This document shows positions 28,272 to 35,959 of a stretch of 64,000 bases of DNA, in pieces (positions within the stretch are counted from its first letter, which is position 1; each line of letters begins with the position of its first letter). This stretch comes from Octopus vulgaris (lineage: Eukaryota), in assembly GCA_951406725.2 (NCBI GenBank), contig OX597814.1:49972001-50036000 (forward strand). Reading direction: 5' to 3'. Under the pieces are notes generated by a model. That model did not search any database. It saw nothing but the letters and a program-made list of their open reading frames with translations, and had not been told where the DNA came from. A program made the translations under genes and the position numbers.

Positions 28272-28301
28272 GAAATTAACACACTTTAGAATTCCAGAGT
28301 T

Positions 28302-28477
28302 CAGGACCTTTACAATAAGGATAGGAAGGGGCTCATTGCAGTAGTATTTGGAGAGGATGCGGTGCAGGGATGCCCAATCCCTGTACCCGCTATGAAGCTT
28401 TTCTATAGGGTTAGGCTCTCCACTCCGGGCCTTGAGGTGGATCACTCCGACTACTCGTCCTCCTCAAAGGTGGATAA
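28302..28477 (+). repeat. 176-bp copy of R2 sequence matching 32567-32742
   Basis: Manual alignment, 4 mismatches, no indels. Confidence 0.95.
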
Positions 28478-29505
28478 AAAAATCATCATAGCGGACCAGA
28501 TATGATTGTAAATGATTCATGTTGAAAACACATGTCATTTGATTGATGTTGCAGTCTCAGCTGACAAAAACTCATGTCTGAAAACGTTTGAGAAATTGAG
28601 CAAATATAAGTACCTAGAGATTGAAATTATAATAATGTAACATCTCACATAATGTGGCATCTCACAGCTGACTTGGAGCCAAGAGTATATGTCATTATCT
28701 ATGTCACTTATACTATCTCTAAAGGTTCAATGCCCTATTCTGTCGTCCTAAGTGTTGAGGTATCTGCCTCATGGAATGTGTGTCGCTTGTTTTCCTACTT
28801 TACTGTTAGTCATGAAAACCAATCACCCACTTCCTCATAGAACACATGTCATGTTAGAATCGTCAAAAGATTCTCATAACTGCTCCTTTAAGAGAATATA
28901 GGAACATTGTCGGAGTACGTAAGCTTCCTGCTTGCTTGTTCTTTAGTGAATTTCTTAGGCAAAGTAGCACACATTTGTGACGTAACACCACCACGCTTCC
29001 TTCTTTGACTTGATTTGACCAATGTCTAAAATCCCACTTTGTCTTTTAGCGCTAGCAAAGGATTGTTGGAAGTACTTTCATTTACATCATTCAAGTGTGC
29101 CTTGTTGATATTGATATTGCTAGTATTTTTGTTTAAGTCTTGCAAGTTTATATTTTTGGCTGTCAAATTGCGACTTCCTATATTTTTAAGTGTATCTATT
29201 CGCTTCATGATTAGTTTTTACTGTTTGTCGTTTGTGAATTAGTTTGCATATTCTCAAATAATATTCTTGTTTCTTTTTTGCTAGCAATTCTTCGCGCTAC
29301 TTCTGCAAAAGAAGTGATATAGAATGAAACATGAATAAGAAAATGTTCTTTTTAACATGCATTAAATATATTATTTCATGTAGATCTCCATACATATCAA
29401 AGTCTTTTATTTGCAAAATAATGCAATAAACATTTTCAATCTGTAAAATTCGGAAATAATTTAATTTTCTTTATGCGGACTTAAAACATATATAGTCACC
29501 AAATC

Positions 29506-29925: not shown

Positions 29926-31085
29926 AGCTTAATACATTGCTTAATAGAGAAGAAATCCCAGACCGGTTGACAAAAGGAGGAATGGTGTTGTGTCTGAAGG
30001 ATGCATCGAAACGAAATACTGCTGACAATAATAGGCCAATTTCTTGCCTCCCATTAATGTGGAAGTTACTCTGAGAAGGAATTGCAGAAGAACTATACAA
30101 ATTTCTTGATGAGAACGATAAATTACCCCCGGAATAAAAATGCTGTAGAAGGAGTTGTAGAGGTACCAAAGATTATTGATAGACAAAATGGTAATGCAAG
30201 ATTGTAAACGAAAGAGAACAAATTTGGGAATGGCCTGGATCGACTATCGCAAAACATATGATATGATTCTACATTCGTGGGCCATCGAGTGCTTAGATCT
30301 GTTTGGAATTGCGAGGAATGTAACGTGTTTCCTCAACAGAAGTATAGTGGGGTGGAAAACTGAACTGACATCCTACGGAAAAGTTTGTGCACCATGGGCC
30401 AGAAGAGGGATTTTCTAGGGTGATAGCTTATCTCTGTTGCTTTTTGTTCTCTGCATGATCCCTCTGACTTTGGTACTTAAGAAAATGAACCTGGGATATC
30501 AGCTTAAAGGAAAATCTCAAACAGTCAACCACCTCATCTTCATGGTTGATTTGAAACTGTATGGCGAGGATGAGACACAAGTGAGTTCCTTGGTGAACAT
30601 GGTCTACTGTTTTAGTGCTGATACTAGAATAGAATTCGAACTCAAGAAATGTGGAATAATCTCCCTAAAATGAGGCAAGGTAGAGTCCCTAGCAAGGAAA
30701 GAATTACCGAATAGAGAAGAGATTAAATAAATTGAAACAGGAGGCTACATACCTTGGCACATTAGAGTTCAACGAGATGATGGAGAAGGAAATGAAAGAT
30801 CAACTGAGGATGGAATATTTCCGAAAACTAAGGTTGTAGTTGCTCTCAAAATTGACGGGATGGAATAAAATCCAAGTGGTTAGTACATGGGCGATAGCAT
30901 CACTCCGGCAAGGAGCTGGAAGTAAAAAATGGCAAAAGAAAAAACTAATGAAAATGGATCTGAAGACAAGAAAAAACGTTTACAGTGTACGGAGCCTTCC
31001 AACTTAAGAGTGACACCGATAGGCTGTACTTGTCCAGATAAAAGGGTGGGAGAGGTTTGGTTAATTGTTAGGATCGTATCGGAGC
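29925..31085 (+). pseudogene. R4/Dong-type LINE reverse transcriptase remnant
   Basis: [44 protein letters not shown], then an RLYL..GGRGL-like region. Confidence 0.88.
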
Positions 31086-31680: not shown

Positions 31681-32420
31681 TCTGTGAGGTTTTCTTGACA
31701 TGTAGCAATTTCCCTTATGGGTCATATATACATACATGATACTGTAAGGTGTGATTCTTGGGACATGTAGCCGTTATTTCTACCAGGTGAAGATAGCATG
31801 TAAAGATTCTCACGTTGGCCAATACAGGCATATATATATGCACGCACATATATTAAAAAGTTGAGTATGATAAGATGAATTGTTTTCACGTCTCAATAAG
31901 AAGCTTGCATAGCTTACTTACAGAGTAACAGTTAGGTGGATGGGTCTGAAGAAATCTTTTGAAATAATCTGCAGATATACGATTAATTTCGAAATCTGGA
32001 GATCGTTAAATTGTATTATTGAGATGATTGATGTATCAGATCAATACTTATAAGAACTGTGGTGTATATGACTTTTTGGTCAAACTAAAGTGTCTGACTC
32101 GAGCAAAAAATTAATTAAAAATTAGTGTAATAGGTATAAACTAACTTGCTGTAAACGAATATGAAAAAAAAATCGCTCTCGCGAACGGGGTCTGGGGGAC
32201 TCGGAATATTCACATCGTGAATTTTCCGAGTCGTCTCACCACAGAAAAAAAAAATTAGTGTAATAGGTGTACAACAACATGTAGTAAACGAATATGAAAA
32301 AAAATTGTACGCTTGCGAACGGGGGTGGGAGAGAGGTCTCGGAAAATTCACATCGTCAGACAATGACCTTTAAACTCTAGTGTTTGACCGGAGCAAAAAA
32401 AAATAATTAAAAATTAGTGT

Positions 32421-35022
32421 GGAATTCTTTCATTAGAAATGTAGAGGACTGGGTGAAGCATTATAGGTTGCACAGTATGGAGGCTACTAGAGGGTACAAA
32501 GGAACAAAAAATGAGAACCGCTCCAAATTTCGGCGGCGTGAAAAGTTGTTTCGATTTGCACGCCACCAGGACCTTTACAATAAGGATAGGAAGGGGCTCA
32601 TTGCAGTAGTATTTGGAGAGGATGTGGTGCAGAGATGCCCAATCCCTGTGCCCGCTATGAAGCTTTTCTATAGGGTTAGGCTCTCCACTCCGGGCCTTGA
32701 TGTGGATCACTCCGACTACTCGTCCTCCTCAAAGGTGGATAACGATCCTATTTTGCGACCGTTCTCTGGGAAGGGGGTGAAAATTAGTCGGAGACAAATG
32801 AATCCTTTCTCAGCGGCGGGTCCTGATGGACTTAGCGTTCGTGAGGTTAATTCCATGGACCCCTGTATCCTCACCAACGTGTGTAACTGCATGTTGCTGA
32901 CCGGGAAGGTTCCCAATATCCTGTAGCGAGGAAGATCCGTCCTCTATACCTTAGAAGGGGAACGATCCTATGGACGTCACCAATTGGCGACCACTGACGA
33001 TATTTTCTGCGGTGTATCGTACGGATTTATCCGGGCTGATGGCTGCAGCGAGAACTCTTTTCTCCTGCGGCAATTGGTCAACCGAGCGATGGGGAGGCCA
33101 GCACTGCTGAGAATACCGCGTCTAGAGGTGGCTTTCATGGATATCGTCAAGGCCTTCGATACAGTCGCGCACTCGTTGGTGTACGTGGGACTGCGAAGGC
33201 TTAGCTACCACGAGCACGTTATAGCGCTCGTGGAGGGGATCTATGTAAGTAGCGCTACCAGATTCTCAGTCGGTGGGCAACTTAGCGAGCCCATCGAGAT
33301 TTGGGGTGGTGTTAGACAAGGGGACGCACTGTCGCCAGTCCTCTTTAGTATTGCGACCGACCCGCTGTTAGATGTTCTGTCAGACAGCGGAGGTCTCAGT
33401 GTTGAGGGGATCAGAATAGCAGGGCTCGCGTACGCTGACAATTTGGTCCTAGTTGCTGGGTCGCACGATGGTCTCCAAACTCTTGTGGATAGATACCTGG
33501 AGTTCTATCGCGCAATCGGGCTAGGTATCAACATCGGTAAACGTGCGTGATTCTCCATTCGTGGCTGGGACAAGTCCTATCTTGTCAACGATAGCACTCC
33601 GCCGAGTCTCGATGGTATTGCGATGGAAAACGTAGAACTGGGAGAGAAGGTGTCCTACCTAGGACTTTATATTCCTAAATGGACTTCCAGCTCGAGTCGG
33701 GAATTTTGCTTAGATTCAGTGGGGCAGGTGTCCCTGAATATCGATAAGATTTGCAGGGCTCCACTGACACCCCGACAGAAATTCCTCTTGTTACAACAGT
33801 ATTATTTGCTGAGACTATTTCATAGTCTCACGCAGGTGCTACCGTCAAAAGGAATTCTCCTTGAACGGGCTTCAGTGTGGGAGCTAGGCGGATTCTTCAT
33901 TTCCCGGATACCATTTCTTCCTTTCTATATAGCATCCGGCGTGATGGCTGGTTAAGTGTTCACCAGATGGTGAAGATGACCCCCAAATGTGTCATCCGCC
34001 GTAATCTTCGCCTTCTGACGTCGGGATACGCCTCCGTGAAAAAGATTGCTGATTCTGCAGGATTAGCTGAACAGAATCAGCAATTAGTAGCTTCCATCGA
34101 CTTGCCGTTGCTCCCTGCTGACAATACCGAATACGACCCGGACATCCGGCTGGTGCACTCCCATAGATGCACGGGGGCGTGTGCGGCGGTGTTTCGTGGG
34201 AATGCAATTGGCAATAGTTGGATAAGTAGACCGGGTGCTGATTACGGAGAAGTGCTTCTTGAGTTTATTCAAGATGCGCTCCAACGTATTTCCCTCCCGA
34301 GAGATCTTGACACGTGGTGGCCGAGGGGACTTCGCGTGCCCAAGATGTAGTGTAGGGGTGGCGACAATATCTCACGTCAGTGGAATTTGCAGATGCAACA
34401 AAATCTGTAATCTGGTAACGAAAGAAGCTGCCAACTATGGCTAGAGTATCAGCGTGGAGGCTTCGTACATTGTTGGAGGCTCCAGGCTGATACCCGACTT
34501 AGTCTTTAACCATCCTAAGAAAATAGTAGTAGTAGTAGTCGACGTGACAGTCCGGTTGGAGCAGGGAGATGCCTTGAGAGAGGTATCTCTTGAGAAAGAG
34601 CGCAAGTATCGACCGCTCATACCATTGCTGTTTTGTAAGAGTTTAATCGGTCGGTAGAAGTGCATGGACTCCCAATCGGTGCCTGTGGTGCCTGGTGCTG
34701 GCCTGCGAGTGCGACACTAGTTGCTTTGGGCATTAAGGACAGGTCATTCCGACGACTTCTCAGCAGGACGGCTCTCAGCATGAGGATCTTGCGGACAGGA
34801 TCCCTGTATGATGACTAGGAGTAACTAAAATCATAAAATATGACAATAATACCGGATTGACAAAATAGGTGGTTCACATGTACCCTTGGCGGGTTAGTAG
34901 GAGTCTCCCTAGGAATGACACTTTTCTAGTGCCTGCGTTCGTGCGTGTGGCTAATGACGGGGCATTAGTGGGACCGCCCACTATAATCAAAGGGAAAGAA
35001 TTGGCAAAGTCAATACACACAA
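32421..35022 (+). mobile_element. 5'-truncated, frameshifted R2-clade non-LTR retrotransposon (RT + CCHC + RLE + 3' UTR)
   Basis: SAAGPDG, GFIRADGCSEN, FMDIVKAFD, GVRQGDALSP, LAYADN, APLTPRQK, CPRC..TISHVSGIC, IPDLVF, VVDVTV, EKERKY, VHGLPIGACGAW; stop at 34816-34818; followed by the 28S target sequence. Confidence 0.88.
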
Positions 35023-35038
35023 TAGCCAAATGCCCCGT
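35023..35038 (+). other. 28S rRNA R2 target-site downstream flank (15/16 match)
   Basis: TAGCCAAATGCCCCGT vs the conserved 28S AAGG^TAGCCAAATGCCTCGT, at the R2 3' junction. Confidence 0.85.
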
Positions 35039-35959
35039 TTGTTGTACACCTATTACATTATTTTTTTCTTTTTTTTTTGTTCGGGTCAAACACTAAAGTT
35101 TAAAGATCATTGTCTGACGATGTGAATTTTTCCAGTCCTCCCCTACCCCCGTTCGCGAGCATTTTTGTTTTCATATTCGTTTACAGCAAGCTCTTTTACA
35201 CCGACTGCACTAATTTTTAATTATTTTTTTGCTCGGGTCAAACACCTTAGTTTGACCGATTTTTCTTTAAAGATTCAGTACCATATGTTGTTTAAAAAAA
35301 CATTTGAAAAGAAAAAGGAGTTCTTCATAGAATACAAAACCTGAATACAATCCATTTTTTACATATGTAACAAATTATTACAAGGACTACCATTAAAAAA
35401 AATCACTTGGCGCATGCAGACATCTCACCGATTTCCATTGATACAGGAATTCGGTAATGAAGAACTGAAACATTTTGACGTTATATTCATTATTCTTTTT
35501 TGCTTTACATTGTAGTTCATGGAAACTTGGTCCAACCAATAACTGTCGCCAAGTCAGTCAAGTCGATATATTCACTATTTATCGTAGAACTTTTTAGTTC
35601 AATACCTGGTTGTAGGGAAAAAAATTCCTCATGGAGAATGTTCCAGAGAGCTGTAGTTCAGGAATAAATGCGATCAATAGGCAAGTTTAAGGAAGAAACT
35701 CAGTACTCTTAACAAGAGGATGAAATTAAACTTTTGTGCTATAGGATTAGATAGATCTTGATAGAAATATTACACACCTTACCTGTCCAGAAAAGCATAC
35801 AGTGTTGTAGAATAGCAAATAGAAATTGCTGATGAGTGTAGAATAACTCTTCAGCTATGATAACCGATCTTCTTGTTCTTCTTCTTTCCAGGGAAATAAT
35901 GGGTTCCAAGCAGAGGCAACGGGCTGTCAACGAGATCTTTACGAAGAAGGTGCTGCATA

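What the first reader, a model, noticed from the sequence alone, without database searches (positions are those of the whole stretch)
34948..34966. R2 3' UTR contains an antisense copy of its own 28S target site
Seen: TGGCTA+ATGACGGGGCATT. The reverse complement of the 28S downstream target TAGCCAAATGCCTCGTCAT is ATGACGAGGCATT+TGGCTA: the same two blocks in permuted order, with 18/19 identity and the one difference compatible with a G-U pair. ACGGGGCATT (34957-34966) pairs perfectly with the local flank AATGCCCCGT (35029-35038), including the base that deviates from 28S, and encloses a TAGTGGG/CCCACTA hairpin (34966-34983). Hypothesis: the UTR pairs with read-through rRNA to define the RNA 3' end, or captures the displaced target strand during TPRT as an internal guide. 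The two pairings are probably alternatives.
Basis: partly seen in the sequence, partly recalled or inferred. Interest (0 to 1): 0.8.

Follow-up and report, generated by a model that had tools for sequence, protein, structure and literature searches.

The report
R2 tail mirrors downstream ribosomal RNA
The untranslated tail of this R2 jumping gene, and of many R2 relatives from moths to birds, carries an in-order mirror copy of the ribosomal RNA that follows its landing site, so the transcript likely folds back on its own run-on ribosomal tail, which offers a testable answer to how the element's copying end is set.

Summary
The letters and coordinates are right, but the block is not permuted. 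It is the last of four collinear blocks (34880-34966) complementary to 28S +7..+101. The apparent permutation rests on one base private to this copy (1 of 14 copies).

This copy is a dead, truncated, ectopic octopus R2. The feature is family-wide: three R2 lineages of this genome carry it, including the intact rDNA-resident element, where it is weaker; two lineages lack a significant signal. It also appears in 13 of 42 unrelated R2-type 3' ends, against 0 of 42 and 0 of 39 controls. One has a near-continuous 75-nt copy whose changes are mostly A>G.

Published UTRs of silkworm, bollworm, several fish and birds show the same words by eye, in two cases matching host-specific 28S variants. I found no mention in nine answered literature searches, but key older papers were unavailable.

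Best reading (0.55): a cis duplex with read-through 28S that shields the tail and leaves about 5 nt free for priming. Function is untested. The scan had not noted this on other DNA.

The parts
32421..34818 (+). 5'-truncated, broken ORF of an R2 non-LTR retrotransposon (RT, zinc knuckle, restriction-like endonuclease); stop codon 34816-34818
   Evidence: RVT_1 E 1.9e-15; best solved-structure hits are R2 proteins, E 1e-25 to 1e-23; 47-56% identity in four frame pieces to the intact 1276-aa element L150; in-frame stops and frameshifts
34819..35022 (+). R2 3' UTR (204 nt)
   Evidence: between the stop codon and the 28S junction; 16 related places in G000
34880..34890 (+). Block A, antisense to 28S +91..+101 (10 of 11)
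34891..34907 (+). Block B, antisense to 28S +50..+66 (13 of 17 here, 15 of 17 in L002, L004, L006)
34934..34953 (+).
34954..34966 (+). Block D, antisense to 28S +7..+19 (12 of 13; the difference is A>G)
34966..35022 (+). Terminal module shared by all five element groups of this genome: hairpin 34966-34983, GGGAAAG at 34992-34998 and a short 3' stem; likely the protein-binding pseudoknot-hinge-stem of lineage-A R2 (inferred)
   Evidence: architecture and hinge motif described in 10.1101/2024.11.11.623112 (passages)
35023..35038 (+). 16-nt remnant of 28S +1..+16 with one copy-specific change at +13
   Evidence: compared with the 28S flanks of L016-L033
35039..35260 (+). Tandem ~145-nt repeat units, mirrored in inverted orientation at 32078-32420; shows that this copy lies outside rDNA
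   Evidence: same 3' junction in L002 and L004

Best explanation
The 3' UTR of this R2 holds an in-order antisense copy of the first ~100 nt of 28S downstream of the insertion site, which is predicted to fold back onto the read-through rRNA tail and likely shields that tail while leaving its first few bases free to prime reverse transcription. Shown: the complementarity, its collinearity, its position just 5' of the terminal module, and its recurrence in distant R2 lineages. From the literature: R2 is co-transcribed with rRNA, its native 3' end is unknown and expected to run into 28S, and 4-5 nt pair with the primer. Inferred: a long interrupted hairpin forms whose loop presents the protein-binding module and +1..+5. 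This would keep the tail from forming an over-long hybrid or from entering ribosome assembly, and might mark it for trimming. Likely origin: snap-back or template-jump copying of the downstream bottom strand, more than once, followed by A>G drift (G-U tolerance, possibly ADAR editing) and block-wise retention. The window copy itself is dead and cannot perform this.
For: Window and family: (duplex z -7.7 window, -9.1 L007, -8.0 L154, -3.2 rDNA-resident L021; upstream-28S decoy between -1.2 and +0.3). Predicted folds of UTR plus 28S +1..+110 give about 40-66 expected cross pairs for lineages 1-3. Blocks persist between lineages 1 and 2 at 77% amino-acid identity and 40% four-fold-site difference, and more weakly to lineage 3 at 58% and 66%. 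Unrelated R2-type ends: 13 of 42 with z<-2, against 0 of 42 for the upstream decoy and 0 of 39 for coding sequence of the same loci (paired p 5.6e-4). L082 pairs almost continuously over +1..+75 with A>G 9 of 18, C>T 1 of 15, G>A 0 of 22, T>C 1 of 21; changed A's avoid a 5' G (8 of 10 vs 1 of 6, p 0.024), which is the recalled ADAR preference. Host tracking: L082 has C opposite its own 28S variant G at +59; at +46 a fish UTR has C opposite G inside a 19-nt exact match and a moth UTR has A opposite T. Published UTRs read by eye: R2Bm has exact words of 10, 12, 8 and 8 nt in order; zebra finch 17 of 18 over +60..+77, ground finch 11 exact, medaka block B. Short rRNA tails outperform R20 in PRINT (PMC11371274).
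Against: No RNA data: nothing here shows the duplex, read-through or editing in vivo. The feature is patchy: 29 of 42 metagenome ends show no signal, lineages 4 and 5 of this genome give z 0.4-0.8, L028 gives -1.1, and I saw none by eye in the Drosophila simulans UTR. Blocks C and D also form an internal hairpin, because that 28S segment is itself a hairpin, and lineage 3 keeps the internal pairing while block D drifts. Substitution spectra in this genome's copies are mixed (lineage 1: A>G 35/118 but G>A 26/186; lineage 3: T>C 24/95). In L082 the +1..+6 bases are also paired, and +1..+5 is only partly free in several predicted folds. A positional profile did not single out +1..+100 cleanly. 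The region is dispensable for R2Bm TPRT in vitro. Published UTRs were found by motif search, so they are a selected set, and related rows are not independent.
Confidence: 0.55

Rival explanations
1. The blocks are fossils of inverted (snap-back) captures of downstream rDNA. They pair incidentally, and persist only as internal UTR hairpins or not at all; pairing with the tail has no selected role.
For: Snap-back synthesis onto nearby rDNA is documented for R2 proteins (PMC11371274). L082 looks like a young, contiguous capture. Distribution is patchy. Blocks C and D, and A and B, have internal partners. A>G drift shows pairing, not purpose. Host-variant matching is also expected from independent captures.
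Against: Blocks stay complementary while spacers diverge between lineages. Moth and fish UTRs share both the antisense words and an adjacent non-28S motif, which suggests long retention. Fully compensatory changes that would keep hairpins but break tail pairing are not the shared changes in lineages 1-2; the near-fixed ones are A>G.
Confidence: 0.25
2. The blocks pair in trans with nascent pre-rRNA of uninserted rDNA units and tether the R2 particle next to its target in the nucleolus.
For: The same complementarity serves equally in trans; sequence alone cannot separate cis from trans.
Against: A tether could use upstream 28S equally well, yet 0 of 42 UTRs pair with the upstream decoy. Engineered templates lacking this region still insert efficiently.
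Confidence: 0.1
3. The blocks act as an internal guide that captures the displaced top DNA strand while the read-through tail pairs with the bottom strand, a double R-loop at the target.
For: The geometry is right for block D, which begins at +6/+7 just past the primer duplex. A 100-nt rRNA tail rescued R2Ol insertion from 12% to 96% when vector sequence followed (PMC6530143).
Against: It would need unwinding to +101. In the R2Bm structure downstream DNA stays paired and these UTR parts are unresolved and dispensable. A>G accumulation suits RNA:RNA pairing better (inference).
Confidence: 0.07
4. A chance match, or a template-switch artefact local to this dead copy.
For: The particular 19-nt 'permuted' form and the perfect local pairing are specific to this copy.
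Against: Shared by 14 of 16 first-pass copies, by the rDNA-resident element and by unrelated R2s, with clean controls.
Confidence: 0.03

Closest known systems
R2-1_OVu and other lineage-A (three zinc finger) R2 elements (Hassan et al. 2026, PMC13188248 Table S2)
   Same: The intact relative L150 has the same 1276-aa length and the same first ~400 displayed residues as R2-1_OVu; same 28S site.
   Different: The window copy belongs to a separate, dead lineage (58% amino-acid identity in the RT stretch). The main text has no occurrence of 'antisense' and the passages seen do not mention UTR:28S complementarity.
3' homology (R4/R5 read-through) priming in R2Tg, R2Bm, R2Ol (PMC12222951, PMC10499050, PMC11371274, PMC6530143)
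   Same: Depends on a transcript that runs into downstream 28S.
   Different: There the rRNA tail pairs with the target DNA primer over 4-5 nt; here an element-encoded antisense is predicted to pair with the tail itself from about +6 to +101.
Fish R2 families with 28S-like 3' UTR sequence (Kojima et al. 2016, PMC5035012, sections 14 and 17 read)
   Same: 28S-derived sequence inside an R2 3' UTR, proposed to stabilise an intermediate by binding the gene.
   Different: There the text ties it to replacement of 110-130 bp upstream of the site (sense orientation is my inference; figure not seen). Here it is antisense to downstream 28S, with normal junctions in L150.
R2 5' HDV-like ribozyme that borrows upstream 28S for its first helix (PMC3774820, listing and abstract start only; mechanism recalled)
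   Same: Element sequence pairs with flanking rRNA in the co-transcript to define an end.
   Different: Opposite end, a few pairs rather than 40-75, and catalytic; no catalytic motif is claimed here (Rfam found nothing in the window).
Group II intron EBS and IS110 bridge RNA guides (recalled; EBS also in the passage)
   Same: Element RNA complementary to its target sequence.
   Different: Those guide DNA recognition; R2 recognises DNA by protein, and a guide role here is the least supported rival.

Membership tests
R2 non-LTR retrotransposon | R2-type reverse transcriptase | tested here: met
R2 non-LTR retrotransposon | [quoted passage not shown] | tested here: met
   motifs visible in broken frames at 34226-34657; aligned to L150 residues 1083-1276
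R2 non-LTR retrotransposon | 3' junction at the canonical 28S site (TAGCC) | tested here: met
   35023 onward; same junction in other copies
R2 non-LTR retrotransposon | Residence in an rDNA unit | tested here: not met
   The window copy has 16 nt of 28S and no rRNA family hit; it is a displaced copy. Met by its relative L150, with 28S on both sides beside uninserted units. No lineage-1 copy inside an intact unit was found.
R2 lineage A | Three N-terminal zinc fingers and Myb domain | tested here: inconclusive
   Lost from the truncated window copy; three finger-like motifs read by eye in L150
R2 lineage A | 3' pseudoknot-hinge-stem that binds the protein | tested here: inconclusive
   Hairpin, GGGAAAG and 3' stem are present in all five groups; the pseudoknot itself was not tested
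R2 non-LTR retrotransposon | 5' HDV-like ribozyme | not tested
   5' end absent from the window copy
Fish R2 with 28S-like 3' UTR (Kojima 2016) | UTR similarity linked to loss of 110-130 bp of upstream 28S | tested here: not met
   No sense-upstream signal; L150 keeps 200 of 200 upstream bases
RNA-guided target recognition (EBS or bridge RNA type) | RNA pairs with target DNA and reprograms the site | not testable with these tools
   needs biochemistry

The most novel reading that the evidence does not exclude
Across animals, R2 elements encode a self-complementary 'tail catcher': a conserved, host-tracking antisense copy of downstream 28S that folds the read-through co-transcript into a long duplex, is edited by ADAR, and defines the template's 3' end. 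It is the 3' counterpart of the 5' ribozyme and has been overlooked in the best-studied elements (R2Bm, zebra finch and ground finch R2) because assays use short or no rRNA tails.
Probability: 0.4. Interest if true: 0.92.

Novelty: new variant of a known kind. Interest (0 to 1): 0.8.

Why it matters
How the native R2 RNA ends at its 3' side is stated as unknown in PMC11194090 and PMC12222951. R2 3' UTRs are described as having little sequence conservation. A collinear antisense copy of the downstream rRNA supplies both a hidden conservation rule and a concrete, cheap experiment in systems that already work in vitro and in cells. It may also explain why rRNA tail length has opposite effects in different R2 gene-insertion designs, where the antisense region is often trimmed away.

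Tried and rejected
Permuted-order reading: rejected. Sense-strand similarity as the source of the match: scores at the shuffle mean. Rfam: 0 hits in the window.

Expression: no RNA holder listed. The four runs laid are contigs only, so read-through and editing in RNA remain open.

A first block count without gaps was too crude for lineages 2-5. The first tree held wrong-frame rows and was redone. The positional helix profile was inconclusive. An exact pattern search gave only 4 already known copies. The protein atlas placed L082 only among eukaryotic clusters, so whether its host has ADAR is not settled.

A by-eye '+71..+81' block in lineages 4-5 did not reach significance and is not claimed.

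Rows dropped from the 73 metagenome loci: 8 with native or 28S-like upstream sequence, plus those with under 300 nt upstream or duplicate ends, left 57. Of these 15 had no endonuclease-region hit, leaving 42. Three of the 42 were too short for the tree and three lacked enough coding sequence for the control.

Literature: nine searches answered. PMC1370589, which I recall as the Ruschak 2004 paper on R2 3' UTR structures, is not held. Mathews 1997, Luan and Eickbush 1996 and the 2015 Eickbush review were not read. Supplement cells over 400 characters are cut, some PDF supplements had no text, and bioRxiv supplements are closed, so a prior mention cannot be excluded.

Full report
What is there. 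The window holds a 5'-truncated, broken R2 retrotransposon on the + strand (about 32421-35022). Its RT stretch hits RVT_1 and solved R2 proteins best. It ends at the canonical 28S junction at 35023, but only 16 nt of 28S follow, then repeat DNA; Rfam finds no rRNA in the window. So this is a displaced, dead copy. An intact relative, L150 (1276 aa), sits in an rDNA array with 28S on both sides. It matches the published R2-1_OVu in length and in the ~400 residues displayed, which makes the host an octopus.

Checking the observation. The interpretation as a permuted 19-mer is not. Of 16 related places in the genome, 14 cover the block, and only the window copy has the G at 34949 that creates TGGCTA. 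Aligned to the reverse complement of this genome's own 28S, the UTR shows four in-order blocks matching +91..+101, +50..+66, +25..+44 and +7..+19. The window scores above all 500 shuffles (z 6.8), 11 of 14 copies do, and sense scores are at background. The 'perfect' local pairing joins a polymorphic A>G in the UTR to a T>C private to this copy's flank. In four other runs the orthologous copy keeps both, but position 34966 reads G. The hairpin is real and is predicted to coexist with the block:flank helix. It opens a terminal module shared by all five element groups of the genome, which resembles the protein-binding pseudoknot-hinge-stem of lineage-A R2 (pseudoknot untested).

Within the genome. 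Duplex energy with 28S +1..+80, against 60 shuffles: window z -7.7, L007 -9.1, L154 (lineage 2) -8.0, rDNA-resident L021 -3.2, L032 -2.7, L028 -1.1, and four copies of lineages 4-5 between 0.4 and 0.8. The upstream decoy gave -1.2 to +0.3. Lineages 1 and 2 differ at 40% of four-fold sites and lineage 3 at 66-68%, yet the blocks persist, more weakly in lineage 3. Folding UTR plus tail predicts about 40-66 cross pairs for lineages 1-3, with the terminal module in the loop. Against my reading: blocks C and D also pair with each other, because that 28S segment is a hairpin, and spectra in these mostly dead copies are mixed.

Beyond the genome. A scan for 28S junctions not preceded by G gave 73 metagenome loci, of which 42 unique ones carry an R2-type endonuclease region. 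Thirteen of 42 UTRs have z<-2 for downstream 28S, against 0 of 42 for upstream 28S and 0 of 39 coding stretches of the same loci. Signal is richer in the clade that holds the octopus elements (7 of 13 rows vs 6 of 29; p 0.0018; quick tree, midpoint root, rows not independent). The strongest case, L082, lies outside that clade on a long branch. It pairs almost continuously over +1..+75, with A>G 9, C>T 1, G>A 0, T>C 1, and its changed A's avoid a 5' G (p 0.024). That pattern shows pressure from RNA pairing, by G-U tolerance or ADAR editing (neighbour rule recalled), but not function. Twenty-nine of 42 show nothing, and a positional profile was inconclusive.

Published elements, read by eye from supplements after motif search (a selected set, not scored by script). 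R2Bm has exact antisense words to +90..+99, +49..+60, +40..+47 and +24..+31 in order, then a near match to +8..+17. The expected numbers of chance words of 12, 10 and 8 nt are 0.0013, 0.021 and 0.35. By my count the last of these words lie inside stem P2, a region unresolved in cryo-EM and dispensable in vitro. Helicoverpa has the same series. Denticeps has a 19-nt exact match including the vertebrate-type base at +46 (chance 7e-8), where the moth UTR matches the insect-type base. Zebra finch matches 17 of 18 over +60..+77 of a vertebrate 28S (salamander row; bird 28S not seen), ground finch 11 exactly, and medaka and poeciliid fish carry the +49..+66 block. I saw nothing in Drosophila simulans.

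Mechanism. R2 is co-transcribed with rRNA, its native 3' end is unknown and is expected to extend into 28S, and 4-5 nt pair with the primer. I infer that the UTR folds back on the first ~100 nt of the tail, presenting the terminal module and roughly +1..+5 to the enzyme and masking the rest (0.55). Snap-back synthesis onto nearby rDNA is a documented activity and a plausible origin. The main rival is that the blocks are such captures, kept only as internal hairpins (0.25). Trans tethering to nascent rRNA (0.10), a top-strand DNA guide (0.07) and chance (0.03) follow.

What I saw of each paper. PMC5035012: passages plus sections 14 and 17. PMC12222951: passages and a supplement search. PMC13188248: abstract, outline, passages and Table S2 rows. 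PMC11194090: passages and Table S1. PMC10499050: passages and section 8. PMC11371274: passages and supplement rows. PMC6530143: passages and a supplement search. PMC6795142, PMC3414825, PMC13586686, PMC13580325, 10.1101/2023.04.07.536001 and 10.1101/2024.11.11.623112: passages only. PMC3774820: listing only. None of the passages mentions UTR complementarity to downstream 28S; the October 2026 review has no occurrence of 'antisense'. Nine searches found no such report, but the older RNA-structure papers were not available. The scan's own notes held no like finding; one of them led me to PMC13188248.

Verdict. It appears unreported, its function is unproven, and it makes an acknowledged open question directly testable. 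Interest 0.8.

Noticed in passing
window 32078-32420 and 35039-35260; L002, L004: The R2 fragment with its 16-nt 28S remnant is enclosed by inverted arrays of a high-copy ~145-nt unit, and L002 and L004 share the same 3' junction, so the dead fragment was probably re-amplified as cargo of a foldback or MITE-like element or by duplication. The 5' sides of L002 and L004 were not reached.
   Followed up: partly
G000, L018-L037, L150-L162: At least five R2-related groups with one shared 3' terminal module coexist in this genome, with clusters of copies on C18 and C29.
   Followed up: partly
   Followed up: partly
L082 (metagenome locus), last 96 nt before the junction: Near-continuous 75-nt antisense copy of its own downstream 28S, closed by a 21-nt loop and dominated by A>G changes; an ideal single construct for testing.
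   Followed up: yes
L087 and L088 (one contig): Two different R2 elements in tandem on one 5.3-kb contig, separated by a short 28S piece, both with the antisense blocks.
   Followed up: partly
L094, L138: Junctions preceded by sense upstream-28S-like sequence within 400 nt (z 14.6 and 57); possibly short insertions or UTRs of the Kojima type.
   Followed up: no
window 29950-31050 and 28293-28490: Decayed fragment of another LINE-type RT (weak RVT_1 hits) and a short R2-like piece (42% identity over 66 aa).
   Followed up: no
published avian UTRs: Just 5' of the antisense words the three bird UTRs share a short sense-like word resembling 28S +86..+94; seen by eye only.
   Followed up: no
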